Source: Lingula anatina
Lineage: Eukaryota; Animalia; Brachiopoda
DNA length: 64,000 nt
Direction of reading: 5' to 3'
NCBI GenBank assembly: GCA_051362555.1
Contig: CM120641.1
Coordinates: 20,832,001 to 20,896,000, forward strand
In this document: one piece after another, positions 1 through 60,000 of the stretch
How positions within the stretch are numbered: position 1 is the first letter of the stretch
Layout of the letters: every line of letters begins with the position of its first letter
Notes under the pieces: model-generated
The model's database searches: none
Seen by the model: only the letters and a program-made list of their open reading frames with translations
Told to the model about the DNA's origin: nothing
Translations under genes and position numbers: made by a program

Positions 1-2382
1 ACTGACCAACAGATAACCATCCTTTGTTATATTACTTTTCTCCTGTAAATAGAAGAAACAATATATCCTGTTTAATTACATTAAGCCATGATGTTAATGC
101 TTCCACCAATATTTCATGAAAGAAAGGATCCTTTATGCATGTACCCTAACATATCTACTCAAATAAAATTTTTGTCACATTCAAAAGGGTGAAATTTCAA
201 CCAATATAAACCACAAATGACACAGTCTTCCATATATATTACAGTGATAAAAACCAATACATGCTGCTCCCTCAACAAACTAATTCTACCTACCATTTCT
301 TTTAGCCGTGGTCGGATCCAAACTGGTATCCAATCAGCACTATCGATGTGAAACTTTGCTTGGACTTTGGAGTTCACTAAAATCAATAATAGAAATAAAA
401 TAATAACTGATTTTTCGGCATGCAAACATCCAACTTTCTTAGGAAGCAATGAATGAGTTTAAAAATCAATGTCACATTGTAAAAGTATTTATGCTCAAAA
501 TGTCAAAATCAATTGGTGCTTAATTCAAAAATATAATTAGTTCACTATCTTACTACTACAACAGACTACATTCCCACAGATTTTAGATCCAATCTATCCC
601 TGTGGGGAGTTTCACTACATTACTGTCAGCTTAGCCAGCTTAAATGTCTGCCCCGCCTACTGAAAGCTGTAAGGGGGTAATTAACTTCCGTGCACGCTCG
701 GCTGACAGCATTTTGGTGTGAACCCAAGGGAGAAAGGTCGATCCAGATGGATCGATCTAAATCTGTGGGAATGCAGTCTTATTCATCATCTTATAACTTT
801 AACCAGTTTTCATATCCTATGTTAGTTCATCTTTAACCATTTTCAACCTTCATGTTCGTCATCTTTACCTTTATTTACATGTTGTCCTCCAGGTCCACCA
901 CTGAGTGTATACTTAAATTCCAAACTGCCTGTGTCACAAAAAAGTACATATTTATATAATAATTTACTGTGCAGCTTACAAATATAAACAAACAGGAATA
1001 ACCATCCAATTTATAAAGTCATCAAAGGAAGTAGCATAACTGATTACAACAGTAAGTCACTGGATGACCTTGTGGTTAAAGCATCTTCCTCCAGAGCAGA
1101 AGGATGTTGCTTTGATTCAGTTGGGGATATACATGTGTATAGTACCAGTCTTTTATACACAGCACCTTATGTCTGTTTGTTTGGCACTCAATCAGCATTT
1201 AAAGGCTGAAGCAGGGTTACTAATAAGTACCTGGTCTAGTAATGAAGTATATTGTACAGCCATATTTTCTCCAGGGAGGTGAGAATTATCTACTTGTTTG
1301 AATCAGATCCACACATTTTATAAAGCATACCGAGATGCAGTGTCATGCAGTACATATATAATTTTTGACTTACTGTCCCTTAATTAATAACACATTTAGA
1401 AAACACTTTACCTTCAGGAATATACCCATTAAATTCTTCTTGGGTCTCTGTTTCGGGCAATTCTTGAGAAGGTTCCTGAAATTTTACAAGTTTGGTATTA
1501 GTCCATGAAAAGGGTTAAAATCTAATTGCAATCTCATCTTTACAAGTCCTATTCCACATTTTATTATCAATTTTATATTAAAAACAAGACAATCACTCAG
1601 AAAACTATTCATTTTATCCCAAAGACAAAAGCAAAATTAAAGTTAGGGATCATGTTATCGGAATCCCACTGTGCCTTTGGGACCATTCTCACAGATATTT
1701 GGATCCATCTATCTCCCTGGGGAGTCTCACTAAATTGCGATTAACTTAACCAGTTTAAACATCTGTCATGCCTAGTTAAACTGTTAGGGGGCAATATTAT
1801 AGCTGATTCGGTAGGCGTGTGACAGACATTTAAGCCTCTTGAGCTGATAGCAATTTAGCGTGAACCCCCAAGGAGTTAGGTCGATCTAGATGGATCGATC
1901 AAGGTATGGGAACCCATTCTGGGAGACCGATCCCAGAGACTATCGTACTAACTTTGTGTCGAACTATCTCCAAGGGGATTCTCGCTTTTAAAATGCAATT
2001 AACTTGGATGGCGTAGATGACTGTCATGCCAGCTGAGGCTGATAGGGGGTAATTAACTATTGTTTAACAGCTTTAGTGGGCGTCCCAGACGTCTAAGCTG
2101 CATTTGTACCATGCACGATGACACTACTAGACTAGGTTCCATCATATAATGTTGGATCTCAGGATGATATTTCTATTTAAATACATGTACATGTATACCG
2201 ACCTTTGGGGGATAATATTCTTTACTCAATTCCCGAGTATCAGTGACATTAAAATCACTCTTTGGGTATAACGTGTCATAAGAGTAGCGGCTTTTGTATC
2301 CTGCTTTTCGGACAGTTATGCCTGCATCTCCGCGACTTGAGAGCGATATTCTGAGGAAGCATCGTGCTACCGTTGAAAACAT
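1..2382 (-). CDS. MRPL58: Mitochondrial peptidyl-tRNA hydrolase ICT1 / mitoribosomal protein mL62, 5 exons in window, 3' end beyond left edge
   Basis: Exons (minus) 2382-2203, 1475-1412, 928-869, 376-294, 42-<1, all GT-AG and phase-consistent. Protein has an Arg/Ser-rich mitochondrial-presequence-like N-terminus, then YKSRYSYDTLYP, FNGYIPE, YTLSGGPGGQHVNKVNSK (GGQ release-factor motif), FHIDSADWIP and ITKDGYLLVS, as in ICT1. Confidence 0.92.
563..779. mobile_element. MITE, family A copy 1
   Basis: Terminal inverted repeats AGACTACATTCCCACAGATTT / AAATCTGTGGGAATGCAGTCT; close homologous copy at 50253-50473. Confidence 0.8.
1679..2160. mobile_element. Two degraded tandem copies of MITE family A in MRPL58 intron 1
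   Basis: Shared internal motifs with 563-779 (CATTCTCACAGAT, ATCTATCTCCCTGGGGAGT, AGGGGGTAATTAACT, GGTCGATCTAGATGGATCGAT); boundaries approximate. Confidence 0.6.
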
Positions 2383-2651: not shown

Positions 2652-2733
2652 GGTAGCGTGGCCGAGCGGTCTAAGGCGCTGGTTTAAGGCACCAGTCTCT
2701 TCGGAGGCGTGGGTTCGAATCCCACCGCTGCCA
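2652..2733 (+). tRNA. tRNA-Leu(AAG)
   Basis: 82-nt type II cloverleaf GGTAGCG...CGCTGCCA with A box TGGCCGAGCGG, anticodon arm CTGGT-TTAAGGC-ACCAG, long variable arm and B box GGTTCGAATCC. Confidence 0.97.
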
Positions 2734-2739
2734 CATGTC

Positions 2740-4582: not shown

Positions 4583-7217
4583 TCAACCAAAATGTATTTC
4601 ATCAATATCAGTCAGCTTCTTCCCAAATATTCTTTCTTCATATTCTGACAACTGCTTTAAAAAACCTAAGTTTGGACGAACAACATTTCTTCTATTCTTA
4701 AGCACTTTGTAGGCATCCATTAATGTCCAATGAAACTCTGTAATGAGATATGCAAGTATTACAGCAGAGCTTCGACTTACTCCCAAGTTACAATGGACTA
4801 GAACCTTGCCTTTACTTTGCTTGGCCTGTCTCATAAAGTCTGTTGCTTTAGGGAATATGTTGATTATGTTGGATCCCGGGTCATCTGTTACACGAACCTC
4901 AAAATATTGCATCCGAACTTTAAAAGGAGAAGGATGCTCCAGTCCCACATTAATGACATGAGTGATGCCAAGATCAGAGATGATTTTCTCATTTGTAGCA
5001 TGCTGCCCAGCCCCCTGATACAGCCAATCTTCCAGGATCATAGAAGGATATGTGAAAAACATCTCCTCTCGCTGCAGTTCTGAAAAAATTATCTCATCAG
5101 TACATAAATAAGGGTGTTTAGTTAGCCATGCATCGAAGCCTCCCTCTAACACTTCTGGTTCAAAGTCTTTAAGTCTCATTTGTAACTGAGACATTGGACT
5201 TTCAGTGAGACAGTGTGTCCTTCCATCTTTGTCATACAGAATGATATGAACATACTTAGAGAAGTCACTGACCATCAGAGATTCACTGAGAACTGTGACA
5301 TGAACAGCAGTGATGATATGAAGAGATTCATATTCTTCCTTTTCTCTTGTGTCTATAATCAAAACATAGTGTGGATCATAAAGGTAAGGACTGGTGGGAC
5401 CCTCCATCAACATATTGTAGAACTCCATGGTGCTCAGCATTCCAAGCTCTTTTCTTTGATTGACAGGGACTGGTACCGCCCCTCTTCCAGAAGTGGCATG
5501 GTCAGAGCCTGCCTCCTTCTTACCAACTTCAGCAGACTCTCCATGCTCACCACTACTGGCTGATACAGTGATGAAGCATTTACAAACTTCTGAGGAAATG
5601 ACAGAAGGCTCCCCCTCTTCAGAATCTACTAATGAAGGACATATCTTAGAATTTCTCCTCCCAAAATTTTGCCTTTTCCCAGCAGAGGAAGATTTGGCAT
5701 TAACCTCCGAACTCTCGGCCCCACCTTAAAAAAATCATAAATAAATCAATAAAGCACATTAAGGGAATGCTTACATAAGATAATATTTTACTAAAGATTT
5801 TACTAGGAATAAAAACTAGCTAAATTTGATGTTTTTTTCTTTATGAAAAAAAAGCAAACTACAATTACATGTATGCAGTTAATTCCCAGATTAATCCTGT
5901 ACTGGCAGCAGTAAAGTTCCTCTGGGAAATCTAAATATTGCCTAAGTTTGATCGATAAAAATATTTGACTTTGATCTTTAATAAATCAGAATCACATCCA
6001 ATTTGTCTAGTTATTGATAAACCTCAAGAAATAACTACATAAAATATTCAAACATTTGCCAACACCATAACATTACTTAAGTATCACCCTGGAGCCAATA
6101 TGACTATTTATAAACATCTTTTGCAAATAAAGCTTATGACAAAATATCTAAAAACAAACTGAATTTGCTTCTTGTACATTTACATACTAACCACAATATT
6201 CTACTGAACAAAGAAAGAAAGAAGAAAAAAAAGAAAAAACAGATTCATTGAGTTATAAGGTTTAATAAAATAATAAGTTGAGTTGGGTGAGTCAACATAT
6301 CAAAATTGCTCAGTGCTATGTTGTGGCTAGGACAGGGAAAAATGACCCATAAGCAATGTCACAACAATAATATCAGGCTGACATCAACAATTTTATTTAA
6401 AGGGATAACAACTCTTCGTATGAGATCCATACTTCACAATAAATATGTGGTAAACAACTCATAGGAATATAATAAATTTTATTTTACCACAAAATTGATA
6501 GAGATTTTTACAAAAATCCAAACCTTTGAGGAAAAAAAAACAAAAAAAACTGGGACTAACTTTGAATGTTTGATCGGTTTCATGAACCATTGGTAAGTAT
6601 GGGAAAGTTGTCGATTACCCCAGGAAGATTCATTTTTTGACCAAAATGAACAGTAACAGTTGTTATCCCTTAAAGAATAATCAGTTCATCTGAAGTATCA
6701 GTTTTTGTGAAAGATTGTAAGGCAATCTTAAAGGCAGTTGTTTTCATTTCAGTATGTACAGGTATTTTACTTAGTAGAAATTTATGCATGATGCATAAGC
6801 AGACATATTTCCCTGTTCTATTTGTTGGGATTTGCACAGGAGTGGTGATGAGTGGAAAAATTATATGTTAAGTGAGGCACCTGCTGTTGAGGTCTCTGGT
6901 TAAAACCTACCTTCTGCACCCATGCTATCCTCATGGCCAACTATGAAGTTCTGATACTTGGCTGCTGGTTCTCCAGAATTCTAAAATACAAAATTATCAA
7001 TTTAACAAATTGATGTCTAACTAATTTCAAATTAAATTCTACCATAAATTGCTTGATGCCTACTCAGATTTGACTTTGAAAAAAGAAAAACATGAATGCA
7101 CATTCTTAAAACAAGAATGTTAATTACTTTGTCATCACCAGGTATCAATGACCTCTCAACTCCTTCTCCAGATACATCTTCAATCTTAGTTGTTGCCTTT
7201 GAAACTTTGTGACCCAT
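4583..7217 (-). CDS. STYXL1/MK-STYX-like rhodanese + dual-specificity phosphatase (~433 aa), catalytic motif intact
   Basis: Exons 7217-7128, 6980-6911, 5724-4583 (1302 nt, in frame). Rhodanese/CH2 domain (IIDTREKEEYESLHIITA...LEGGFDAW) plus DSP domain (YPSMILEDWLYQG, VHCNLGVSRS, RPNLGFLKQL). N- and C-termini resemble STYXL1. Probable noncoding exon boundaries at acceptor 8016 and donor 10229. Confidence 0.85.
6401..6670. mobile_element. PIF/Harbinger-like MITE
   Basis: TIR AGGGATAACAACT / AGTTGTTATCCCT flanked by TAA on both sides (3-bp TWA TSD). Confidence 0.7.
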
Positions 7218-10668: not shown

Positions 10669-13208
10669 ATGTCTAGGGTAAGTTAACAATATTATTGTAA
10701 ACTGTATTTGTATATTCTGTACTTAAACACGAATTTTATATCAGTAAATTACAACAGCTGCAATAAATTCATGTTTAAAATTACTGCTGAGTTATTACCA
10801 GAATTGTCAGTCACCCAGCACAAACTCATGAAAATAATAACAGTTGTTTAAAGTTTAATGCATTTGTAAGAGCCTTCAACTAGTGAATGTATTAAATATA
10901 ACATGACTGATATTGGTTTGATTTGATGTGTTTTGCCACATTTATATATTTGGATCATCTTTCCATGATGACAATATTAGCAACATTCAGATTTGGAGAA
11001 AAGAATAACATACAGTAATTGACAGGAGTAAGGAAAATGCTTGTCAGTGTCTTGTAATTGACATTTAGTAACTAATTACCAAAATTACCTTCTGTATATG
11101 TAACAGACCGATAGCTCGGGTAGATGTTTCTTTATTGTTGTTGTACAAATATCTACAAATATCTCCAAATATCTGCAAGAGCAATATAGATAAATTAATT
11201 TTAAACAATTACATATACAAAATTTACACTGACGAAAGACAAGAAAGAAAGAACAAAGAAATAAAAATATAGCAATGCCAAAAACACCATAAAAAATAAA
11301 TATATCAATTTAGAAATGGTGTTTTTGGCATTGCTATATTTTTATTTCTTTGTTCTTTCTTTCTTGTCTTTCGTCAGTGTAAATTTTGTATATGTAATTG
11401 TTTAAAATTAATTTATCTATATTGCTCTTGCAGATATTTGGAGATATTTGTAGATATTTGTACAACAACAATAAAGAAACATCTACCCGAGCTATCGGTC
11501 TGTTACATTTGGCGCCCGAACAGGGACTTGAGTACAAATCGATATCTGCAAGAGTCACGGTCTGTTACATAAAAAGGACTATCAGCTTGACCATTTATAA
11601 AACAGTTTCTATGCCCAAAAGTCCGTCCATTGTTGCCAGTCTTCATTAAGTAGGAGCATGCCTTTTAAAAACTCCAGTGAGACACCATGTGGTATCATAA
11701 TGTATATGTATAAATGTCTTTCTTTTTTCAGAGCAATGTGGAGAACTTGTCACCGCAGATTATGCGTCATGTCACTAAAGAGCTGATGACACTCCAGTCT
11801 GACCCACCTGAGGGTATTAAGATTATCCCCAATGAAGAGGACATCACAGACATACAAGCAGCAATAGAAGGTCCAGGTAATGTGGCAGTGAGGGTTCAGG
11901 GGTTGGTCATTGTGCATGAGGGTGTATATTGTGGTTATTTAGTACAGTGTATTATTTTAAAACTATATTTTAGTGTTGCAGGCAGAATATGAGATATTAT
12001 GTATGTTGGAGTATTTTCTCTACTTGTTTAGGTAGCGCTTTAGATGAGATGAGAATATTGATATCTGTTTGGTTTAATAATTTATTTAAATTCATTTATT
12101 TACTAATATTAATATTAAATATTTACAAGAAGTAAAGATTCCCAGGTCTGTTTATGTTGCCAACCATTTAAATCTAATACAACGGGAACATGATGATCTC
12201 AAAGGCAACTGGCATGAGTTTAAAGTCACTTGTCTTATGAACAACAGTCAACTTTTCTTTTATATTTCAGCTGGCACGCCATATGCTGGTGGTATGTTCA
12301 GGGTAAAGTTGGTGCTCAGCAAAGGTTTTCCAAGTGAGCCTCCGAAAGGTTTCTTCCTCACCAAAATTTTCCATCCCAATGTTGCCAAAAATGGTGAAAT
12401 CTGTGTAAATACATTAAAAAGAGACTGGAAGACAGAATATGGAATAAAACACATTTTATTGGTACATCATATTTGTGCTACTAGTTGCATGTTTCTTTAT
12501 ATTATTGTTTATATTCAAAGTAAAAGTTAACAACAATAATTATTAATATATTTTTTAATTATACACTTGTTGAAGCTATTTTAAAATCAATAAGAGGAGC
12601 AATCAGATTTTAAAAGGTGTTTTGTTTTTATTCTCCAGTTTGAACATATTTCTTGATATATACTGAACACTTCTTTTATAGACAATAAAGTGCCTGTTGA
12701 TTGTCCCAAATCCTGAGTCTGCATTAAACGAAGAGGCAGGAAAACTTTTGTTGGAGCAATATGATGATTATTCTCAGAGAGCTAGATTGTACACTGATAT
12801 TCATGCAAAACCTCCAAGGTAAGCAGAATGTTTAATGCTCATGTGGTTGTCCACATTTTTTGACACTAAAGACTACATTTTAGAAACTCGAGACGAAAGA
12901 AGATGCACACAGTATGGATAGCTGATGGATTTCTTTTTTAATTTAACGCATTTTGAAAGTTTTATTCAGTTAATTTTACAAAAGGGTCAATTTACTATTA
13001 ATTATATCTCATGCTTATTTTGTTGCTCTCATTCATTATGTACTAGTAGAGTTGAACTTACAAACACCATTTGGCTTTTAGATCTTCTTGTGAAGAAGAG
13101 TGCTTGGACAAAAATTCAGATGGTCCATCTGCTAAAAAGCATGCAGGAGACAAAAAGCTTGCAGAAAAGAGGAAAAAAGAGAAAAAGAAAACTCTGAAGC
13201 GATTATGA
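10669..13208 (+). CDS. UBE2S: Ubiquitin-conjugating enzyme E2 S (202 aa)
   Basis: Exons 10669-10677, 11732-11876, 12271-12461, 12682-12818, 13082-13208 (609 nt). Motifs [29 protein letters not shown] (catalytic Cys), [11 protein letters not shown] and the basic C-terminal [11 protein letters not shown] typical of UBE2S. Confidence 0.96.
11099..11569 (+). mobile_element. Foldback LTR-end element with tRNA-Lys(UUU) primer binding site
   Basis: Perfect 192-bp inverted arms 11099-11290 / 11316-11507 with TGTAACA...TGTTACA ends; AATAAA at 11470; PBS TGGCGCCCGAACAGGGACTTGA at 11510-11531; second CGGTCTGTTACA end at 11558-11569. Confidence 0.85.
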
Positions 13209-14515: not shown

Positions 14516-17500
14516 TTATCTTGATTCACTGGAACTAGATCTGCTGTGTCTTCTTCGTCTGGCTGGTGATCTGGACCTTGATTTAGAACGTGACCGTCTT
14601 GGAGGTGTGCGTCTTCTTGGAGGTGGTGACCTGAAAGATACAATTTTAAGATAATTCTGTACATTCAGATTTCTCATCACAGCACAGCCTTTATATCTGA
14701 AAAAATATGAACTCAAAATCTCCATTTTTTGACTCGAATATTTAGCAGGCCTGGATACATACCTCCTCCTAAACCTGGGTGGTGATTGCCTCCACCTTGG
14801 TGGGGGGCCTCTCCTGGGAGGACTTCTCCGTGGTGGCATCCTGGGCTGTCTGGGAGCTAAAACGGTTGCCGCTGTCACTTCCTGGCCATCAATCTGACCT
14901 GCATATTGAGGTTACAAATTATGACATGACTGCATACAAAATGAAATAATTTTTTAAGATTAACAACTAACAATAACAATGAAACCACGCGGAGCCTTAA
15001 AAAATCCACAAATCATTAGATTGCTCACATATCTTAGACATAACCTTAAAAAAACCCACAAATCATTAGATTGCTCACATATCTTAGATATAACATTTAA
15101 AAACCCCACAAATCATTAGACTGCTCACATATCTTAGTTATGACATATGGTGAACCACTGTTTAAAACTTTAGTTATGACTTTGGATGCAAATGAGGTCC
15201 TTTCACTTATAATACAATATCTTTAGCACCAATCTAATATTATCACACTATATTAAGCATTATAAAAAATGGGGGTGTGTGGGGAAGGGGGATATACCTC
15301 CATCCATGTGTTTTATAGCTTTTTCTGCCTCTTCGGGTTTTTCATATTCTACATATGCAAAACCTCTGGAAATATTGCCATGTAGTCTGTCATTGGGCAT
15401 CTCAAGGCTCTTGATTGTTCCATACACAGAAAAGATTTCTTGAATGTGGTCCTTGTTTACATTTCGTGTCAGACGACCTATGTGCACTTTGGATGGTTTG
15501 GGGGTTGGGCTTCTTTTCTTTCTCCGGACAGGTGATCGTGATCTGGACTTGGACTTTGGTTTTGCTGCCCTGCAAAATTAAAAGCAATCGCTATACATAA
15601 TCAAATTCATATTTCACCATTAGACAAGTATTCATATTTAAGAAGTGAAATAGTCTACACCTTCCTTAAAGGGGCCCGCACACGGTGAGCATTTGGCGCG
15701 CGCCACTAGCGCTGCGCCGTTTTCTCATCGTTTGCAGGGGTATTTTGGTGAGATTTTTGCCTCTCGCTCGGCTGAGCAAAATAACTCACGTGTTTGATAT
15801 TTTTGGTCTCTTGAGGCGGCAAATGTCTCAGCGTGTGCGGGGTGCAAGCGTCGATTGCTCATGCCATGCCAACAATGCGCATGTGCCGGTAGCCGGAAAC
15901 AAAGAAAATGGCAGCCCCCAGCGAAGTGAACAAAAATGTACACAGTTATAGTTAGTCTGATTGATTAACGTGGTCACCATTTGCCATTACTACAAAAAAA
16001 AAAAAAAATATGTAATGTTTTCTTAATCACACGATCCCATAGTTCGCGGTGCGTCCGATAGGGGCAGGCCGGGAGGCACCTCTGCTGAGCAAAGAGCGCA
16101 TCGTTTGCGGGGAGCTGAGGAGCGCGAGCATCTGGCGCAGCGCAAGTGACGCGCGCCAATTGCTCACCGTGTGCGGGGTGCTTAACACTTCATTTTAGCA
16201 CTTAGTAGCACAATACATTTTATACCCTAAGAGAATATAAGTATTTTCCATTAAAACAGGTTTATGTTTGGAGAGAGGGTGAGAGGTTGTCTTTGACAGC
16301 CTTTTGAGCAAAATTCCCCTTATATGCTGACAGAGAAATATAGTAATGAAATTATTTTCAAAAAAATGAAAACATCTTAATGTATGTAAAATGTTTTCAT
16401 TTTTTAAAAATAATTTTATTACTATATTTCTCTGTCAGCATATAAAGGTGCATTTTAAGTCAATTTTTTGGCACAACAGTCAGCCAAATGTCAACATATA
16501 GTTTCAAATAGTATAACTTACAGAAATATTTACGGTTAGTGTTTCATATAATTAGAATGGGTATTTTCTGCATATTTTCTGCGCTGTTAATAACCGAGAA
16601 AGATAATAAGTGTGAAAGCTCTTTTAAGGTTGACTGAGTGATTAACACATTTGGCACGTCAACTTTATATGAGTCATATAAGAAATTAGTTGAAGTGCCT
16701 TATATGTCTACTGGGAATCCATTCTCAGTTCAAATGTATCTTTAAGAAGATTACATCAATCAGCTGGTTGAACTAATTTGGAGTGTTCTTATAATGTACA
16801 TCATCATCATCAAAGCCAGATGCAGGTACTGGTGTTTACGACAACATATCTGAAATGTAATATCTCTTACTTTGTTCTGCGTCTGGTTCCTCTATCTCTG
16901 GAGCTGGAAGATCCACTGGAACTACTGCTGTCTGAACTAGAGCTTCTTGAACTACCAGAACTACTGCCAGAACTAGAACTGGAACTGCTTGACCTTGACC
17001 TAGATCTGGAACTGCTACTACTGGAACTGTATAATACATGATACCCATTGGTAATAATTTGGAACTAAGTGCTGGGCCTGCTTGGTTAATTATCTTTTTT
17101 TTAAACTGGTACTGTCTAATGTATGTCTTTCACATTTTTATGATTTTATAAAAGTTGACTTACTAAGATGGATAAATGAATTTTATAAATCATTGGTTCT
17201 TCAACTAAACAATCAATTACTGCAACCAACCATACAAATTGGGAAAAAAATTACAGCAATACCAAGTAACCGATTACATAACTTACCTGTCACCACTGCT
17301 GTTACCACCTTTAGTTTTCTTATCTTTTTCCTTTTCTTTTGTGCGTCCTCGCTCCCCTGTCTTTTTTGCACTAGCACTTTTTTCTCTGCTTGCACTGCGG
17401 CTTCGAACCCTATATTGCAAATTATAATAAATAAATATACACTACACACACACTTGGAGGTCACCATTTTCAAGGATTCCACAATGCGGTTGTGGAGCAA

Positions 17501-18203: not shown

Positions 18204-18790
18204 CATTCACTACAAACAAAAGATCAGCTAGTTTGTTTACAAATAAAATATTCTGACTAGGGTAGCAGCTACCCTAGTCGGAATATTTTATTTGTAAACA
18301 CAACAAATATCTTGTATTTCTGAAGCATGTCAGCAAAACCTAGACAATTAATTTTCTATATTTTTCCACATTCATTTGTTTGGTGACTTTGATAGGTTCA
18401 ACTGCTATAAAAGTAGACGAGTTCATTTACTGACTGGGTGCATGTTCTACTAGAAGTTTTAAGTCTCACTGCATGTAAAAACCAGGGTCCTAATGTAAGG
18501 GATTAGATGAAGGGTATGCTTAAAACTACATTATTATTCTAAACAGCTCCAAAGTTTATAAAATTAAACATAAGGAACTTGATTTGTTTTATTTCCAGAC
18601 CCAGATGAAAATAATTTACGTTTGCAAGTCGTATGAGTTACCCCAACGTTAATATTTTAAGCTCTAGCAAGTACTCAAACATATAAACATAAATGCAGGG
18701 TATGCACATTTATTTGATGAAAAAAATACTTCTCAATATTGCATCGATGGTGAATAAAATCAGAGGATTCAAAGAGATTTTAACTTACAT
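14516..18790 (-). CDS. RNPS1: RNA-binding protein with serine-rich domain 1 (267 aa)
   Basis: Exons 18790-18789 (AT of a split ATG), 17409-17287, 17026-16871, 15569-15298, 14898-14763, 14630-14516 (804 nt). Poly-Ser domain, RRM (KVHIGRLTRNVNKDHIQEIFS...RGFAYVEY...MDGGQIDGQEVTA) and RS/P tail. Confidence 0.95.
14996..15139. repeat. Minisatellite, 3 copies of ~50 bp
   Basis: CCACAAATCATTAGATTGCTCACATATCTTAG core repeated three times in an RNPS1 intron. Confidence 0.85.
15671..16181. mobile_element. GC-rich MITE (Harbinger/Kolobok-like)
   Basis: ~45-bp TIR (CCCGCACACGGTGAGCA.TTGGCGCGCG.CACT.GCGCTGCGCC and its reverse complement); TTAA context on both flanks. Confidence 0.8.
16321..16444. repeat. 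Imperfect palindrome / small foldback (~55-bp arms)
   Basis: TATATGCTGACAGAGAAATATAGTAAT... pairs with ...ATTACTATATTTCTCTGTCAGCATATA. Confidence 0.8.
17855..17996. mobile_element. Small degenerate TIR element
   Basis: GGGGC...GCCCC ends; subterminal AAGGTTCATTGGTC is inverted against GACCAATGAACCTT. Confidence 0.5.
18149..18201. repeat. (AT)n microsatellite
   Basis: About 26 AT units. Confidence 0.95.
18234..18300. repeat. Near-perfect palindrome, 33-bp arms, 1-nt centre
   Basis: TGTTTACAAATAAAATATTCTGACTAGGGTAGC-A-GCTACCCTAGTCGGAATATTTTATTTGTAAACA (one mismatch). Confidence 0.85.
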
Positions 18791-22031: not shown

Positions 22032-28205
<6,174 letters not shown>

Positions 28206-40331: not shown

Positions 40332-40502
40332 CGGGCGGATTTAGGCCGGCCGTCTTCTGGGTCTTCCGGAAGACGGTCAGATTTTCAAGTTTACATTGAC
40401 GGGTATCTAATTTTTTTCTGTCGGAAGACGGTCAAAAATGAACAACGGATCAACAAAGATAATTTGGAAGACTGTCAGAAAATATCTCTGAATCCGCCCC
40501 TG
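40332..40502 (+). mobile_element. GGGCGGAT-type MITE, family B copy 1
   Basis: Ends GGGCGGATTTAG / CTGAATCCGCCCCTG; flanking 5-bp direct repeat CAGAA. Confidence 0.75.
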
Positions 40503-41473
40503 CAGAAGAAATGACGCCAAGGCATCATCACACTCAACATTATTATGACCATGGTCATCATTTCCCTTGTATTTTTAGTTTGTTTCAATAGAAGATACGT
40601 AAATGTGAAAAGCATATTCAAAAGCTCTTTTATTGAATATTTTGTTCCAGTGAATCACTATCTTTATCAGTAATAGAACTGTATTATAAACATTCTGAGA
40701 AATGTATTTTCAAGGCAATTGACTACGTTGAAAATATTGGAGATATTGATTTTGTGTAGACTCTTCTTTATTATCGTTGTTTATGATAAGATATTTTCTT
40801 TTAGAACCAGTAAGCTGGTTAAACTGCATTTTGATTGGGTTCAGTCAATCATGAAATTGCCCTAATAAATTAAATTGATTTTTTTCAGTAGCTTTTCTGT
40901 CTTGACACTATCAACAAAACATATAAAAACACTTATTTGAAACCAATAGGACATATGATATAAGAATACAATAAGGAACCTTAGCCACAATTTACATTAC
41001 ATTGTGTAAAAAAAAAGTTCAAAAATAGGTTTTATTAAAAGACTATTATGAATTTAGGGCATCTTAGTTTTCCCATTCCCTGACTGTGCAAGTATCTTCT
41101 ATTCTTCTATTCTCATTTTTAAATGATTTTATCTGAAAATATTGTCATAAAAAGGCTTCTCATGGTTGTTTGAAGGTGGGTTTTGCTTTTGTTATGAAAG
41201 ACGTACCAGTTATTAATTTTGTAGGAGACCTGTAATATGTATAGACACCACATCAGCCCTAAGAAAGGGTCAGTTTCCACAATCCAAACATCAATAGAAT
41301 TCGTCGTTTGCCGAATTATAAAATAAAAATTGCCTCGGCTACCATTTTGTACCCAACAAGTAGTAATGAAAACATTGTTTAATAATTCAGTTTTACCACC
41401 ATATGTCTCTTCCTATGATAAAACACTACACATTGACCTTTTGAATCATCAAAGATTGAAATAATGTGATGAT

Positions 41474-41642
41474 CAGGGGCGGATCCAGAGATATTTTCTG
41501 ACAGCCTTCCACATTATCTTTGTTGATCCATCCTCCATTTTTTGACCGTCTTCGGACAGAAAAAATTAGGTACTCATCAATGTAAACTTAAGAATTTGAC
41601 CATCTTCCGGAAGACCCAGAAGACAGCCTCAATCCGCCCCTG
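41474..41642 (-). mobile_element. MITE family B copy 2, inverted relative to copy 1
   Basis: CAGGGGCGGAT...ATCCGCCCCTG; internal sequence is the reverse complement of 40332-40502; flanking direct repeat ATGAT. Confidence 0.75.
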
Positions 41643-50252: not shown

Positions 50253-50473
50253 AGACCCCATTTCCACAGATTTTAGATCGATCTATCCCTGTGAGGAGTA
50301 TCACTAGATTACTGTCAGCTTAGCCGGCTTACGTAAATGTCTGTCCCACCTACTAAAAGCTGTAAGGGGGTAATTAACTACCGTGCACGCTTGGCTGACA
50401 GCAATTCAGCATGAACCCCCAGGGAGTTAGGTCGATCTAGATGGATCGATCTAAATCTATGGGAATGCACTCT
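50253..50473. mobile_element. MITE family A copy
   Basis: Colinear and highly similar to 563-779 over its whole length. Confidence 0.8.
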
Positions 50474-51078: not shown

Positions 51079-54000
51079 GATATTGCTACTGTAGACTTAA
51101 ATTCATTGTCCTTTGATAATTTTGATATAAAGTATATAAAAAAAAGTATGGAAGTTTTTTTCTAAACGTATTTGAGTAAATCAGAACTGACTTGCATGTA
51201 GATGAATGCATACAATAACAGATCACCTGGAAAATTATTTATTATATTTCAAAATTGTACTCACAGGTACTGTAAGTATGTACAAATGAAATGAAATGCT
51301 GATCATTGTCTTACGATATTAATTTTTTCAAAAATCGTGTCTTTGTCTTGTTAATTGTAAAAAAACTGCACGGAGAAAACTCTTTGGCGCTGTCAATTGG
51401 TGAGATGCCAATGCCATTGCTTTCCTATTCGCACCTGCTGCAATCGGTGTGCTCACAATTATTGGCGATCAGAGACATCTGGTAGCAATTATTTCAATTA
51501 CTAAGACAGGTGTTTGTATTTGTGCGCAGCCTAAGGGGCCTCTGTGTGTGTGTGTGAATGTATGTGATGGCTGTGACCTGTTTCATTGTCAGCCATTTTG
51601 AATAACTGGCATAGTCCACAGTTTAATAAGTGAGAGGTGAGTCAATGCGGATATGTATGTATGCCTGAAATTAAACTTAATGCTTATTTGAAAGATGATT
51701 AAGGAGAGAAGAGCGTCTGTTTTAAGCAGTTAGCAAAAGGTGGGGTTGTGTTTGTCTGTGTGTGTGTGTGAACCAAAACTGTACGTTGAATATATATATC
51801 ATTTATATGTACTACAACAGGTGCTTGCTTTCTCTTAATAATTTTTGTAAGGAGTTTAGGCTACTTATCAAGTAATGATGGAAGTTAAATTTGGTATTTC
51901 AGAGTATCAAGAGTAAAAACATCACATTGAGGATAAGAAAAAGAATAGGACTTGTAACAGGTAAGTTTTTAGTGTCCAGAAACTAGTTTTGGAACTTGAA
52001 AGTTGAAAAAGTTTCTCTGTATTTAAACAAATTTACTTGTGCCATTGGATAGCAAGACAAACTTTTTCTCTTACTGATTCAAACTAGCTGCACTTGATAA
52101 GTTACACTGTATGTTATTATGGCAACACAGAAATGTTTGAACTGCTGGGGTTGAATTTATAAGCAAACCGCTTATATTACAGTAATTTACTCTGTGCAGA
52201 ATATTTTGTTTATTGATTAAAGACAGCCTCCAAGAATGTGGAATGGAAATGTGTTTTTGTTGCATTTTTTAAAAACTTTTTTATTTGGTAAAAGGGAATA
52301 TTTGAGAATATTTTTTTTTCTTTTCTGTCACATACACTTTTTTGAAGTTTTGATCCCACTCTACATTAATTATGCTATTTATATGAACACAACAATTTTA
52401 AAATGATGAATCGGTGTATCCAAGTTGCTTTCTGTATGCTATTGTTTATTACAAAAATTAAGATATTGGATTGCTACATACTATAAGTAATAACAACCAA
52501 CAGGAAAGTCATGTTCTTTGTATTGAAAAGTATGAAAAATGTATCTGATGTTCATTTTATTACTTTACACGGGCATGTGCCTGTAGGTATTTGGGTGATA
52601 GGAATTAATGAGCGTATTGTATTGTTGTTTAAAAAACTGTCTGCCGGCTAGTTCTCTATGTAATGTACAGTACACCAAACATTTCAAAACATGCATGTGT
52701 AGTAATGTAGCAGATTTATTTAAAAGTTTAATGTAAAAAATCTTGACACTGTAACAGTTGTTAAAAACATGAAAATTGACCTTGATACAATTACTACTTT
52801 CTTAGGTATGCAATATGCTATAAAAACTGACAATAAATAATAATATTAAAATAATATGATATATATATAATATATGTAGCAAGTCAAATGTTTGCACACT
52901 GTGTTCAGTTTTATATGGGATGCCATATTTAGGATGAAAGTGCGTCAGACAGGCAATGTATTGTGACTGAAGGAGTCCACTTAATATGTTAATTAAAGTA
53001 TAATGTGTTCCTGTTGGACTATGTACTTGTTCAAAATATGATTTCAATGATTTGTGATTTTGCACTTTCTTCTTTGTTGCACGAAGATTGTCATACATAT
53101 TAGAGAGTTTCCGGTGCATTTGGGATACGACGGCTAGATTGTTACGTATGTGCTAATGTATCCAGTAATGCGCTTCTCTCTTCGCGTTCCGGTAATGTCC
53201 CGGAATGCTGGCGCTCATTCCAATATAATAATAACAATATACGGCCCCGTAGCCATCTATTTCCAAGGGGGGGGGGGATTCTTTTTTATGAAAAAGGAGA
53301 CAAATATTACCCAAAAGTGTAATTTTTCCCGACAAAAATGGCGGTTCGTAAGAACCCCACGATCAACCCCCGACTACGTGCCTGATAAACCAAAACTAGC
53401 AGCTCCTCTCTGTTAAAAAGTCGAAATTTGCATGAACGTACACTTGAACTATTGTAAAAAAGTATATAAGTCATATAAATTAGCAAACAAAACCTTTAAT
53501 AACTATTTTCAATAATCTTCCGCACTGGCTAGATAGGAGCGCTTGTATTCCGCAGACTAGATGGGATGACGGTATATGAATGCGGTGAACGTCACAAGTG
53601 CGCACAAACCGATGACGTATTAATCTAGCCAGCGTATCTCACCGGCAACGGAAACTCTCTATTATACCAGTATTACTGGAACAATTGATAAGAAGAGGGA
53701 AAGATTGGCTCATAATCAATTTTTGATCCAGCTAATGAAGGGATAGAGACATTTACTTTAGGATTAATGGCAATTAGTTTTAATAGTAAATAAACAAACT
53801 AGCGATTCTTAGCATTCTAGTTTGATGATAAATCTTTTGGTATGGTTTGCAGCAAAACCATACACCTTGTCTCAAAGTGGCTTCTGGCCCATTTAATAAG
53901 TGCAGATAGATATCCAATTAGATGATGTTCTAATGTACCCCCCAACCCCATATTTTAGACGATAGGCTTACTCGTGACTAAATTTGTAATCTCTGCCTGT

Positions 54001-57000
54001 CTGAATGATGTTGCTTTAATGCTAAAAATGTTTCCTTAAGCCCCAAGTTACCACAAAGATAAGTTATTACTTGAGTCATTGAACTTATGCAGTCTATTAA
54101 TGACACCATTGTCTTTGGCAGTAAAGCAGTTGGCTTACTTGACTTGGTGATCTAAGTTCGACGAAACTACTCTGGTCAATTATTCAGCAGTGCAATCCAG
54201 TCTCCCTGAAGATTATCAGTAATTTATTGATCTGGGGCCCTCCTGAAACTTCAGTAATGAAGAGATAAGATGTAGAGGACCTTAGTCAACTCCGTTATTC
54301 CTTACTGATTTCTCTCCCCAGCTTCATCTCATTGTTTTATCTGCAAACATAACTTTAAGCTTATAATACACATTCAACAGTGATTTATTGTTTTTGAACA
54401 GACTTGGTTAAATATCATCAACTTAGATATAAAACACCCTTTCAAGATCCGTCACTTGTTTCACAAGGTCATTTATTTATAATTTTTTTGCTGCAGTTTT
54501 TGTTTCTTTGATGAAATAGTTGTAGCTCAATGTTTATGAAAAAGATTAGTTTGAATAATACATTCAATTTTGAAAGTGATAGTCTTGATGTATATTTATG
54601 CTTTTGTGATGAAAGTGCGTCAGACAGGCAATGTATTGTGACTGAAGGAGTCCACTTAATATGTTAATTAAAGTATAATGTGTTCCTGTTGGACTATGTA
54701 CTTGTTCAAAATATGATTTCAATGATTTGTGATTTTGCACTTTCTTCTTTGTTGCACGAAGATTGTCATACATATTAGAGAGTTTCCGGTGCATTTGGGA
54801 TACGACGGCTAGATTGTTACGTATGTGCTAATGTATCCAGTAATGCGCTTCTCTCTTCGCGTTCCGGTAATGTCCCGGAATGCTGGCGCTCATTCCAATA
54901 TAATAATAACAATATACGGCCCCGTAGCCATCTATTTCCAAGGGGGGGGGGATTCTTTTTTATGAAAAAGGAGACAAATATTACCCAAAAGTGTAATTTT
55001 TCCCGACAAAAATGGCGGTTCGTAAGAACCCCACGATCAACCCCCGACTACGTGCCTGATAAACCAAAACTAGCAGCTCCTCTCTGTTAAAAAGTCGAAA
55101 TTTGCATGAACGTACACTTGAACTATTGTAAAAAAGTATATAAGTCATATAAATTAGCAAACAAAACCTTTAATAACTATTTTCAATAATCTTCCGCACT
55201 GGCTAGATAGGAGCGCTTGTATTCCGCAGACTAGATGGGATGACGGTATATGAATGCGGTGAACGTCACAAGTGCGCACAAACCGATGACGTATTAATCT
55301 AGCCAGCGTATCTCACCGGCAACGGAAACTCTCTATTATACCAGTATTACTGGAACAATTGATAAGAAGAGGGAAAGATTGGCTCATAATCAATTTTTGA
55401 TCCAGCTAATGAAGGGATAGAGACATTTACTTTAGGATTAATGGCAATTAGTTTTAATAGTAAATAAACAAACTAGCGATTCTTAGCATTCTAGTTTGAT
55501 GATAAATCTTTTGGTATGGTTTGCAGCAAAACCATACACCTTGTCTCAAAGTGGCTTCTGGCCCATTTAATAAGTGCAGATAGATATCCAATTAGATGAT
55601 GTTCTAATGTACCCCCCAACCCCATATTTTAGACGATAGGCTTACTCGTGACTAAATTTGTAATCTCTGCCTGTCTGAATGATGTTGCTTTAATGCTAAA
55701 AATGTTTCCTTAAGCCCCAAGTTACCACAAAGATAAGTTATTACTTGAGTCATTGAACTTATGCAGTCTATTAATGACACCATTGTCTTTGGCAGTAAAG
55801 CAGTTGGCTTACTTGACTTGGTGATCTAAGTTCGACGAAACTACTCTGGTCAATTATTCAGCAGTGCAATCCAGTCTCCCTGAAGATTATCAGTAATTTA
55901 TTGATCTGGGGCCCTCCTGAAACTTCAGTAATGAAGAGATAAGATGTAGAGGACCTTAGTCAACTCCGTTATTCCTTACTGATTTCTCTCCCCAGCTTCA
56001 TCTCATTGTTTTATCTGCAAACATAACTTTAAGCTTATAATACACATTCAACAGTGATTTATTGTTTTTGAACAGACTTGGTTAAATATCATCAACTTAG
56101 ATATAAAACACCCTTTCAAGATCCGTCACTTGTTTCACAAGGTCATTTATTTATAATTTTTTTGCTGCAGTTTTTGTTTCTTTGATGAAATAGTTGTAGC
56201 TCAATGTTTATGAAAAAGATTAGTTTGAATAATACATTCAATTTTGAAAGTGATAGTCTTGATGTATATTTATGCTTTTGTGATAATAGATGATTACAAT
56301 GAAGGGGACTTGACTCAGGGATTTATTTCTGGACCAGAGCTCATATGTTAACACAGGAATTTAGTTTTAATGCTGACATTATTACTAGTACTGCATTTTC
56401 ATGTATTTTTTTTAATCCACAAAAGAAGATGTGGATAGTTATTTTATGAATTACAGAAGCAGGCTTTATCTATCATTATATGTTGAAGAACTGAATCTCT
56501 GTGTGTACTCAAAAAATGTTTTGATAATAGTAAGTCTACAAAAACCATGAGTCATTGTGAAAGCACTCTCTTGGCCATATTTGTCATGTTGAAATTTTAT
56601 GTAGTCAGAAGGCCTGTCAGCTATGTTTTGATAGGTATTTGCTAGATTAAAAAATATCTTTTACAGTGTACCTAGGTTATTAATTTATCAGATAATTAAG
56701 ATAAGAAATTTTTAGGTAAAGATTCATAAGCTAGTTGAGGTTTGTTTCAATTTTAGATTTATCTTAAAAATGGGTGATAAAATAAACCGTAGACACCAGT
56801 TGTTATTGACTTCAACCTATTTTTACCATTTTTGGTTAAATTGGCTTATCTTAAAAAATTCATTCCTTTTTTTTCTGCCCCACTATCCAGACATGTAAAG
56901 ACAAGTGATCTTTTATCTCTGACCTACAGTCAGACTAAAATCCATTCAACGGTGATATTTTCCAAAGTTTGCACAGAGTAGGACTACTTCAGACTCGAAA

Positions 57001-60000
57001 CCAAACTATCTTTAATTTTCAAATGACCAGATCAAAATGTTTTATAGTAATTCACAAATTTCAAAAAACCATTTCACATATCTTGGCATTATATTTCTTC
57101 ATAACTTGAATGATTATTTTTGTTTACTTTTCCACAATTATCACATAGCAATGGTTAAGACTGTCTGAAACACATCGGTGTATCTAGATCTGGATTTGGC
57201 AGTGTGAGTTGGTCAGGTATTCAGTTTAAAAAGCTACTTTTTTTACCGTTTGTTAGAACCCTCTTTTTTCCCAAGCATTGAAATGGGTACATCTACTTGT
57301 ATCAAATCTTAAACAGGGAAGATCTTCATTCTGGCATGTTGGACTTAAACAACTTCTCAGTTTCCCCCAAAATACCATACACCAGCGGGAGCAGAATACA
57401 TCTACAGGGAATAACAGTTTGTAGAAGACCATGTTTAGCAAACATCCCTGTAGAATTTACGTGGTCCACCCAACTCAGCCATCTCTTCTATGATAAAGCG
57501 AACATTTTGGCACATGCTTTGCAGTTTTCACCTGCCATTTGGGTTCTTCCTGCTGAGGAGGTACAGTACTTAGATTTGCTCTTATGAGGAATTGTCTCAC
57601 TCTTAGAAATTATCTCAGATATTTAAAGCCATGTTACATCTTAACAGCAGTTTAGATTATCTATTCGAGTATAGCAATGGGAATTTGTAAAAATTTACAA
57701 TATCTAGGTAATGAATCTGGTATTTAAAAAATGTTCTTTTGAAGAGACATTGTAAGGTATTTGTAAGATGAATAACAGTTTCCAGTCCAGGGATATTCAC
57801 AGTGCAGCTATGTGAATGTGTATTTTGTGACATTCTTTTAACTATTCAGAGGTAGAGAGTGCAGAATACCATAGACCATATAATGATAATGGTTCACCTT
57901 TAAGCTGGAGGCAAGGATGTGCCAATCATATCACCCTCAACGATACAATTTTGACTATAAATAGTTTCTGGTTTAGAAATGGATGTGTCTAGTCTACAAA
58001 AGCTGCTACATCTTTAATTTGTGAGTACTAGTACTAACTACTTCTCTACTCAGTACTGGCTTTTGGTGTTTTGTATTTTGTATTGAAATTTAGAAGGAGC
58101 AGTAATGCATATTATAAGGTGTCCAAATTTTCTGCATGCAGATAGATCTGTTTTTAGAATGTGTTAAAATTGCCAGTGGCAGACATTCTTGCATGAGACA
58201 CAACATATAATCTTGTCGGTCATGTGCCAAGACCTTAGGCTGAAAATCTATTAGAAAGTACCCTGATGAACAGGTTCAGTTTGTGTTCACCACTCCAAAC
58301 TTACATCAATCTGCCCAGCTCCTTAACACATTTTTAGTCACCTACATAATTCAGTCTCTGTTTATCTCTGATTTTTTTTGTAGCAAAAAAAAAAAAAAAC
58401 AAAAAACAAAAAAAATTGTATGTGGAAGTGCAATTTTTAGATAAATTGCTTGGTGAAGTATGTATATGAGTAAGAGTTTGCATCTTGCACTATATATTAG
58501 ATTTATGCAATCGACAAAGTCTGGGGTTGAAAGATAATGGTACAAATATGGCATTGTTGCCCGAGTTACATAAGCCTTACAGTTTAGAGTATTGAGAAAT
58601 GGTATATATTCCTGCTTTTACAAACACAGGTTGATTAGTATACTTATGGTGCTTAGCCAAAATGATTCCTTTTTATCTGTAAAATAAATTGTTTTCACAT
58701 AGTTGGAGGTTGATAACAGCCCCTAGTCCTTCTTGTTTACCCCATGAAGTGGGCACATTTATCCATAATTAATTTATCAGCTTCTGGTGATGCATTGATG
58801 CACCATCTATGTTATAACCACATTTTGATTTCCTATATTTTATTTGTAGCTTGACCCACCTTCATGTTTGCATAGGCTATTGTGTAGTAGGTTTACTGAC
58901 ATTCTTGAGGTGTGTTTGGTAAAGACCATAATACACAGAGATGAGTCAAGCGTAAATTAAGAGGGAAGGGAGGATGGGAATTTTATGATACAGTGCCACT
59001 TGCTAAATGTATGTTTTTAGTAAATAAAAGGCTATGAGAAGTCAATGAATTATCATAAATTTGTGTTGTAAGAGAGGCAGCTCCAATGGAAATGACAGCA
59101 TCTTTCCGTTGAACACCCACCACTCCTCCTCTCCTCCCCCGAAATTGGTGGCTGTCATCACAGGGCCAAATTCTTGACATGCTTCCAACAGGATAGAGTG
59201 ACACAGGTAGTGGGGCCCAGAGTGCTAGGTGGACTAGAGGTGGTGGTGCAGCAGGTAGCCCGGTGAGTTACTGACCTGGAACCTTGACAAGACAAATGTC
59301 CCCTCTTTGAGAGACACCAGGGGCCTGTTGCACAAAACAACTGTTAGCCCGAATTTTTCTCTTTTTGAATTTTTAGACCAATGTTTTAGTCAACTTTTAC
59401 CCAAGACAAATCAGTAGTAGTCCAATTGAATAAAAGTCTGCTTGTTTTAAAGCAAAGATTATTTAATTGGACCACTATGAATCTATCTTGAACTGAAGTT
59501 GACCAACTTTTTGGTCTAAAAGTTTAGACCAATTTTGGGTTAAAGTTCTTTTGTGAAATAAGCCCCAAAAGTTAAATCATTAGCTGACTTTATAAGCGTT
59601 AGGTTAGTGCAAGAAGAGTCTTTACAAATTCTTGGTTTGTGGGACCTCCAGTATCCTAGATGGTGTTTCAGGTTAAAAGTGGTTAAATAATCAAGATGCA
59701 GCACCTGTGATAAAGAGCCATCTGTTTCATTTTGATCTCGTAGGTGAGTTGGACAAGTCAGGGAACAGAACAAACACTGTACAATATATATCCTAGCACG
59801 GATACATTAGCATTCAAGTTGTGCCTAGTCAGATGAAAATACTGCCATCATTGTAAACAAAATGTGCTGTGCATTCAACTTAAGGAGTACATAATGCATG
59901 TGGGTTCTGATATTTTCCTGATTTAAATATAGTTGAACAAGATGATGAATTGCTATTGACTAATGACATACATGTACTACTATCAGAAGTCTTGATTTTT

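What the first reader, a model, noticed from the sequence alone, without database searches (positions are those of the whole stretch)
11099..11569. Perfect 192-bp foldback of an LTR end followed by a tRNA-Lys primer-binding site: a possible LTR-to-TIR hybrid element
Seen: arms 11099-11290 and 11316-11507 are exact reverse complements around a 25-nt loop, starting TGTAACA and ending TGTTACA. The right arm has AATAAA at 11470. After a TT spacer comes TGGCGCCCGAACAGGGACTTGA (11510-11531), then 38 nt built from arm fragments (GTACAAAT, ATATCTGCAAGAG) ending in a second CGGTCTGTTACA terminus. The flanks are TATA / TAAA, a possible imperfect 4-bp TSD. Known: the 22-mer is complementary to the 3' end of mature tRNA-Lys(UUU) including CCA, and its first 18 nt are the PBS used by HIV-1. 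LTR-CA + short spacer + PBS is the canonical 5'-LTR layout. Ginger DNA transposons have Gypsy-like integrases, TG-starting long TIRs and, in some families, tRNA-derived sequence. Inference: an R-U5 cDNA of a Gypsy-type element folded back on itself, giving integrase-type TG...CA ends on both sides. It could be a young non-autonomous family bridging LTR retroelements and Ginger-like TIR elements. Identical arms imply it is recent or homogenised.
Basis: partly seen in the sequence, partly recalled or inferred. Interest (0 to 1): 0.8.

Follow-up and report, generated by a model that had tools for sequence, protein, structure and literature searches.

The report
Mirror-image retrotransposon end, one-off insertion
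A 471-base insertion in an intron of an animal ubiquitin-enzyme gene is a perfect mirror-image double of the end of an ordinary retrotransposon repeat, missing from the same site in two other samples and without a target-site duplication, so it is likely a one-off accident of reverse transcription rather than a new family of mobile elements.

Summary
The structure is real: exact 192-bp inverted arms, 25-nt loop, TT, tRNA-Lys primer site, 38-nt tail, in intron 1 of a UBE2S-like gene. Public runs of the same organism explain the parts. Left arm plus loop is the reversed last 220 nt of a multi-copy LTR; right arm, primer site and 36 of the 38 tail bases are the donor's ordinary LTR end and leader. 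The empty site, seen in 2 runs of 2 studies, equals the two flanks joined: no 4-bp TSD. In the one deep genomic run laid, no contig holds the fold junction or the short second end. The fold sits on a 3-nt inverted match, and both arms share a base seen in none of 12 contigs covering it. Best reading (0.6): a self-primed minus-strand cDNA, extended through the primer site, inserted once. Self-priming is known from HIV-1 in vitro and cDNA capture from yeast; I found no paper with such a genomic fossil. A mobile Ginger-like family is not supported. No laid run confirms the filled allele. The scan had not noted this on other DNA.

The parts
11099..11290 (-). Left arm: last 192 nt of the donor LTR in reverse, starting exactly at the LTR's terminal CA
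   Evidence: Exact reverse complement of the right arm; X4 contig 10 and X9 contigs carry it joined to the loop in this orientation
11291..11315 (-). Loop: 25 nt of native LTR lying just upstream of the arm sequence in the donor
   Evidence: X4 contig 10 (5069 nt) reads 4849 nt of other sequence, then 11318-11291 reversed, then the arm; X9 contig 8 covers 11243-11318
11316..11318 (+). Fold point: ATG that still belongs to the native reversed LTR and pairs with CAT at 11288-11290 (3-nt inverted microhomology)
   Evidence: Contigs of X2, X4 and X9 leave the window sequence behind 11318; sequence
11316..11507 (+). Right arm: last 192 nt of the LTR in donor sense, with AATAAA at 11470-11475, ending TGTTACA; T at 11357 (mirror A at 11249) is particular to this copy
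   Evidence: G at 11357 in 12 of 12 contigs counted there in 4 runs
11508..11531 (+). TT spacer and tRNA-Lys primer-binding site
   Evidence: 11510-11527 complements the HIV-1 18-nt primer RNA; contiguous with the LTR end in X2, X4, X9 contigs
11532..11567 (+). First 36 nt of the donor's native leader; its last 10 nt (11558-11567) repeat the LTR end at 11496-11505
   Evidence: X4 contig 11 (969 nt) and X9 contig 20 (192 nt) match to 11567 and continue into other sequence; repeat
11568..11569 (+). Terminal CA completing a second LTR-end-like terminus; likely picked up by a jump between the 10-nt repeats
   Evidence: Not shown by any of the 3 runs covering 11567; origin inferred
11094..11098 (+). 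Target: GTATA, followed in the empty allele by T (11570); no duplication
   Evidence: Empty allele in X2 contig 7 and X9 3340-nt contig
10678..11731 (+). Host context: intron 1 of a UBE2S-like ubiquitin-conjugating enzyme gene; the insert ends 162 bp before the acceptor
   Evidence: Spliced contig X4-13 joins 10676/7 to 11731/2; PF00179 in a later exon; the name UBE2S is from recalled similarity

Best explanation
The insert is a mirror-image double of the end of an ordinary multi-copy LTR retrotransposon plus its primer site and leader start, and it likely arose once when a minus-strand cDNA primed on itself during reverse transcription and was then inserted into this intron. It has no upstream LTR part, codes nothing and is likely dead; being inside a transcribed intron it is predicted to form a 192-bp RNA hairpin.
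For: Donor architecture: X4 contig 10 (5069 nt, internal sequence running into loop + arm) and contig 11 (969 nt, LTR end + primer site + leader + about 880 nt more). Multi-copy LTR: in X9 summed depth is about 1900-2600 on the loop and 317 on primer site + leader against 110 on the flanks, and LTR-end contigs with other flanks occur in X4 and X9 (depth is only a rough guide). Fold geometry: native sequence is left exactly at 11318, giving a 3-nt inverted match with a 25-nt loop. One arm copied from the other: family contigs in X9 differ from the window by 0-9 letters, yet the arms are identical and share T11357/A11249 while 12 of 12 contigs counted there read G. Both ends fall exactly on an LTR-type CA. 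Polymorphic: empty site in X2 (study P1) and X9 (P3). Precedent: PMC4668388 (passages) reports HIV-1 strong-stop DNA priming on itself through 3 nt and extending to the primer's 5' end; PMC11372161 (passages) reports Ty1 LTR cDNA intermediates captured at breaks; PMC11724301 (passages) reports inverted insertions formed within single-stranded DNA and captured by end joining.
Against: No laid run (7 distinct runs, of which 1 deep genomic) shows the filled junctions or the fold junction, so the allele rests on the assembly alone. The donor's start site is not mapped, so the fold point may not be the strong-stop end. A 3-nt match is weak: the terminal 59 nt fold at only -0.5 kcal/mol and the predicted structure does not pair CAT with ATG. 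Two exact CA ends suggest integrase processing, yet there is no TSD, so an extra step is needed. The shared T could be an allele of an active donor in the assembled animal rather than a copying error. Host polymerases can make the same foldback.
Confidence: 0.6

Rival explanations
1. Host repair made it: a break was patched by template switching on a genomic donor copy, or an ordinary insertion at the TATA site was later rearranged in place (foldback in one LTR, switch to the 5' LTR and leader, loss of the rest and of the right-hand TSD).
For: No TSD; short microhomologies at both internal junctions; such inverted templated insertions are described in yeast (PMC11724301 passages). The left junction lies where a 4-bp stagger in GTATAT would put it (RTATAY is the Ginger2 preference in PMC2836005; 228 such sites in 64 kb; noticed after the fact).
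Against: An in-place foldback would copy back into the left flank, not into TT + primer site; both ends sit exactly on LTR-type CA; the content matches the first product of reverse transcription; flanks show no loss against the empty allele.
Confidence: 0.17
2. A young non-autonomous element with inverted ends, moved by the donor's integrase or a Ginger-type transposase, present in the assembled animal's population only.
For: TGTAA...TTACA termini fit the TGTNR pattern of Gypsy and Ginger; whole insert has 12-bp inverted ends; polymorphic and identical arms, so recent.
Against: No TSD, whereas Ginger gives 4-5 bp. In X9 depth is 0 over 11329-11350, 3 contigs leave at 11318, and a 192-nt contig passes 11567 unbroken. 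Single copy in 64 kb. Caveat: one genomic run, contigs only, some records filtered out.
Confidence: 0.11
3. Assembly or library artefact (chimeric or palindromic read).
For: Filled junctions and fold junction seen in none of 7 runs laid; perfect arms.
Against: Both flanks run on in line with the empty allele (1 other letter in 153 and 1 in 320); the insert has exact LTR ends; polishing with family reads would be expected to give the majority G at 11357, not T.
Confidence: 0.07
4. Two separate copies of the LTR family inserted back to back and were trimmed by deletion.
For: The family is multi-copy and transcribed; PMC2836005 proposes this route for Ginger1 ends (Discussion read).
Against: Arms identical with a shared rare base while family contigs differ by up to 9 letters; the two break points lie 25 nt apart in donor coordinates on an inverted match; no TSD.
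Confidence: 0.05

Closest known systems
Self-primed minus-strand strong-stop DNA of HIV-1 (PMC4668388, passages read; Guo 1997 seen only in its reference list)
   Same: Same 18-nt primer site; hairpin made by a 3-nt intramolecular match and extended back to the primer end
   Different: There an abortive in-vitro product; here a germ-line insertion that also holds 40 nt beyond the 18-nt primer copy and a second LTR-type end
Ty1 cDNA intermediates and inverted single-stranded DNA captured at double-strand breaks in yeast (PMC11372161, PMC11724301, passages read)
   Same: LTR-end piece inserted without TSD; inversion through short microhomology
   Different: Induced breaks in yeast; the passages read do not describe an LTR hairpin running through the primer site
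Ginger1 / Ginger2 DNA transposons (PMC2836005: passages and Discussion read)
   Same: TGTNR ends; inverted arm of 192 bp within the 40-270 bp range; site lies in RTATAY
   Different: No transposase, no 4-5 bp TSD, no dispersed copies seen, arms come from one LTR end, primer site present
TRIMs, incl. Helenus of Lingula (PMC10886601 passages and supplement hits; PMC6934838 passages)
   Same: Short, non-coding, LTR end + primer site
   Different: TRIMs have two direct LTRs, a polypurine tract and 4-5 bp TSD; three motifs of this insert are absent from the Helenus/Ajax supplement and the three Helenus_LAn LTRs are 127-132 bp tRNA-like sequences
Mu killer of maize (recalled; two look-ups not held)
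   Same: Inverted duplication of a transposon end inside a host transcript, able to form hairpin RNA
   Different: Retroelement, intronic; no small-RNA evidence here

Membership tests
Ginger1/Ginger2 DNA transposon (incl. non-autonomous) | TG...CA termini of pattern TGTNR | tested here: met
   TGTAA...TTACA; pattern from PMC2836005
Ginger1/Ginger2 DNA transposon (incl. non-autonomous) | 4-5 bp target-site duplication | tested here: not met
   Empty allele gives 0 bp for TGT...ACA ends
Ginger1/Ginger2 DNA transposon (incl. non-autonomous) | Dispersed copies with the same two ends | tested here: not met
   Not in the window nor in contigs of X9; the assembled genome itself was not available, so the test covers one other individual
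Ginger1/Ginger2 DNA transposon (incl. non-autonomous) | Integrase-like transposase in or acting on the element | not testable with these tools
   No ORF of 100 aa or more overlaps the insert; partner elements cannot be read from the runs
TRIM / Helenus | Two direct LTRs around primer site and polypurine tract | tested here: not met
   Arms are inverted; only 12 nt repeat directly; no purine tract before the last end
TRIM / Helenus | tRNA- or 5S-like promoter in the LTR (Helenus/Ajax) | tested here: not met
   No tRNA by ARAGORN there; Rfam gives only sub-threshold hairpin matches; motifs absent from the supplement
LTR retrotransposon (donor) | LTR ending in CA, short spacer, tRNA primer site, long internal region running into an LTR | tested here: met
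   X4 contigs 10 and 11, X9 contig 20; that contigs 10 and 11 belong to one element is inferred
Gypsy superfamily (donor) | pol order PR-RT-RH-IN and Gypsy-type RT | not testable with these tools
   Contig interiors are not returned; tRNA-Lys priming occurs in oyster Gypsy-125_CGi but is not diagnostic
Self-primed strong-stop cDNA | One end exactly at the LTR/primer boundary and a fold on a short inverted match | tested here: met
Self-primed strong-stop cDNA | Fold point at the donor's transcription start | tested here: inconclusive
   Only 3 raw RNA reads laid from 3 runs; no start site seen
DIRS-type (tyrosine recombinase) retroelement | Inverted terminal repeats as the normal donor form, no tRNA primer site (features recalled) | tested here: not met
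   Donor contigs show an unfolded LTR followed by a primer site

The most novel reading that the evidence does not exclude
The insert is the collapsed remnant of a full-length cDNA that self-priming plus normal plus-strand transfer bounded with inverted R-U5 ends: a single reverse-transcription slip would turn an LTR retrotransposon into an integrase-coding element with roughly 200-bp inverted ends, giving a one-step route from Gypsy to Ginger1-like DNA transposons, a step PMC2836005 calls unclear. Such alleles inside host introns would also act as hairpin silencers of their donor family.
Probability: 0.15. Interest if true: 0.65.

Novelty: new variant of a known kind. Interest (0 to 1): 0.33.

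Why it matters
As a single dead insertion it matters little to the animal. Its value is as a clean trace of a side reaction of reverse transcription known mainly from the test tube. It suggests a search that can be run on any long-read genome: LTR end reversed + short loop + LTR end + primer site. Copies that keep the interior would make the open question of how LTR elements gave rise to inverted-end Ginger elements testable; fold points that cluster would mark donor start sites; and intronic copies are candidate sources of small RNAs against their own family.

Tried and rejected
Whole genome: none held, so copies in the assembled animal could not be counted. LTR-end + primer-site pattern: 0 matches in viral contigs and metagenome contigs. 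A 19-nt LTR-end pattern gave 2 metagenome loci that share only 20 nt with the insert and were dropped as chance. Run search: no RNA holder listed, although X2 and X4 contigs join exons and so look RNA-derived; 7 of the 21 listed runs were laid. Raw RNA runs X11, X14, X17 gave 2, 0 and 1 reads: no test of start site, poly(A) site or allele. X20 covered only 67 nt at 90-95% and no flank: uninformative. Pairing of the leader with the LTR in donor RNA is predicted (-36.5 kcal/mol) but 12 of 200 leader shuffles reach it, so it is only a hint. Rfam: 20 matches, all below gathering score, generic hairpins. Atlas look-up for the host clade did not run. Literature: 10 searches listed no paper that, from titles and abstract starts, describes a genomic LTR-end hairpin with primer site; the library lacks most subscription papers and Repbase/Dfam were not available, so this is not proof of absence. 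Mu killer could not be read (no mention). Supplements of the Ginger papers were not opened and may bear on the tRNA claim.

Full report
Observation. The two arms (11099-11290, 11316-11507) are exact reverse complements around 25 nt, followed by TT, a 22-nt stretch and a 38-nt tail, as reported. The first 18 nt of the 22-mer complement the HIV-1 primer RNA printed in PMC4668388; chance expectation in the window is about 5e-8. The structure is single-copy in the window and lies in intron 1 (10678-11731) of a ubiquitin-conjugating enzyme gene. The window is AT-rich animal DNA; earlier scan notes on this genome call the host Lingula, which I did not test. No whole genome was held.

Related sequence. 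A run search with the insert listed 21 runs; 9 runs of 3 studies, all organism A, hold 46-61% of the sampled words. I laid 7 of the 21 in two calls. X2 and X4 contigs join exons and so look RNA-derived; X9 is genomic with about 110-fold depth on the flanks; X20 was uninformative; three raw RNA runs gave 2, 0 and 1 reads.

What the parts are. X4 contig 10 (5069 nt) reads 4849 nt of other sequence, then the loop reversed, then the arm to its last base; contigs of X2, X4 and X9 all leave the window sequence behind 11318. So left arm + loop + ATG is simply the last 220 nt of an unfolded LTR, reversed. X4 contig 11 (969 nt) and X9 contig 20 (192 nt) carry LTR end, TT, primer site and the tail up to 11567 and then continue into other sequence; the X2 contig matches to the same place. 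So 36 of the 38 tail bases are the donor's own leader, and its likeness to the arms is a property of the donor, not of this locus; pairing between leader and LTR is predicted but weakly supported (12 of 200 shuffles reach it). Summed depth in X9 is about 1900-2600 on the loop and 317 on primer site + leader against 110 on the flanks, and LTR ends joined to other flanks occur in X4 and X9: a multi-copy LTR family with a few internal regions, though summed contig depth is no copy number. The coding region could not be read, so 'Gypsy' is untested.

Empty site. One 3340-nt X9 contig and a 227-nt X2 contig join the left flank to the right flank. Every boundary that fits gives 0-2 bp of duplication, and 0 for TGT...ACA ends. 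The proposed TATA/TAAA TSD is therefore wrong. The site is GTATA^T; RTATAY is the Ginger2 preference and occurs 228 times in the window. The left junction is where a 4-bp stagger would put it, but the second TATA is missing.

Is it a family? In X9 depth is 0 over 11329-11350, three contigs leave at 11318, and contig 20 passes 11567 unbroken: neither the fold junction nor the short second end is seen. This is one individual, contigs only, with some records filtered out, so it argues against a widespread family but cannot exclude one confined to the assembled animal's population. Equally, no laid run shows the filled allele, so it rests on the assembly; in-line flanks, exact LTR ends and a minority base in both arms make an artefact unlikely.

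Mechanism. Shown: content, order, junction positions, no TSD, polymorphism. Inferred: the left half equals the first product of tRNA-primed reverse transcription, beginning exactly at the LTR end. Its 3' end ATG matches CAT 25 nt back. Extension from there copies the arm, TT and the primer site; identical arms that share T11357/A11249, where 12 of 12 contigs counted in 4 runs read G, fit copying of one arm from the other. Sequence beyond the 18-nt primer copy needs a donor template, which normal plus-strand transfer supplies. The leader's 10-nt repeat of the LTR end explains the last CA by a jump or later deletion. Against: the 3-nt match is not a stable fold on its own, the start site is unmapped, and exact CA ends without TSD need an extra step (end joining of processed ends, one-sided integration, or later loss of the right TATA). 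Host template switching can give similar inversions and is the main rival.

Comparison. PMC4668388 (passages) describes HIV-1 strong-stop DNA priming on itself by 3 nt and extending to the primer end in vitro. PMC11372161 (passages) describes Ty1 LTR cDNA intermediates captured at breaks; PMC11724301 (passages) describes inverted insertions formed in single-stranded DNA. Ginger membership fails on TSD and dispersed copies; TRIM/Helenus membership fails on repeat orientation and sequence. PMC2836005 (Discussion read) calls the LTR-to-Ginger step unclear and suggests two LTRs in opposite orientation; the mechanism inferred here would give inverted ends from one LTR in one step, but this locus lacks the interior and the TSD that would show it. 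Ten searches found no paper on such a genomic structure (listings only, limited library). The scan's notes hold nothing alike.

Possible effect. On the host's sense strand the insert is predicted to fold into a 192-bp hairpin (-324 kcal/mol) within a transcribed intron; like Mu killer in maize (recalled) it could feed small RNAs against the donor family. Nothing here tests that.

Verdict. Real sequence feature, most likely a one-off polymorphic fossil of a folded-back LTR cDNA (0.6); new variant of a known kind; interest 0.33. The bold reading, a one-step route from LTR element to inverted-end transposon, has probability about 0.15 and would rate 0.65.

Noticed in passing
window 22740-22970: A second, older palindrome: 113-bp arms, 88% complementary, 5-nt loop; unrelated to the LTR insert, MITE-like
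   Followed up: no
window 40333-41639: About 1.3-kb element with roughly 170-bp inverted ends at 87% identity, likely an old non-autonomous DNA transposon
   Followed up: no
window 52933-56284: Tandem duplication of about 1675 bp at 99.9% identity: very recent duplication or an assembly duplication
   Followed up: no
window 563-779, 1707-1920, 50253-50473: Three copies of an interspersed repeat of about 220 bp at 86% identity
   Followed up: no
window 16310-16456, 18234-18300, 59320-59566: Three further short palindromes (88%, 96%, 67%)
   Followed up: no
window 4583-5725 (-): Single long frame with rhodanese + dual-specificity phosphatase domains
   Followed up: partly
window 2652-2734 (+): tRNA-Leu(AAG) gene
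   Followed up: no
runs X2 and X4, laid on window 11291-11567: The donor LTR element appears in spliced-RNA-like contigs of two studies, up to 5069 nt long, so the family is transcribed; X4 and X9 show small length variants just beyond 11318 and 11567
   Followed up: partly
window 14999-15148: Three tandem copies of a 50-nt unit in the RNPS1-like gene region (name from recalled similarity; RRM found)
   Followed up: no
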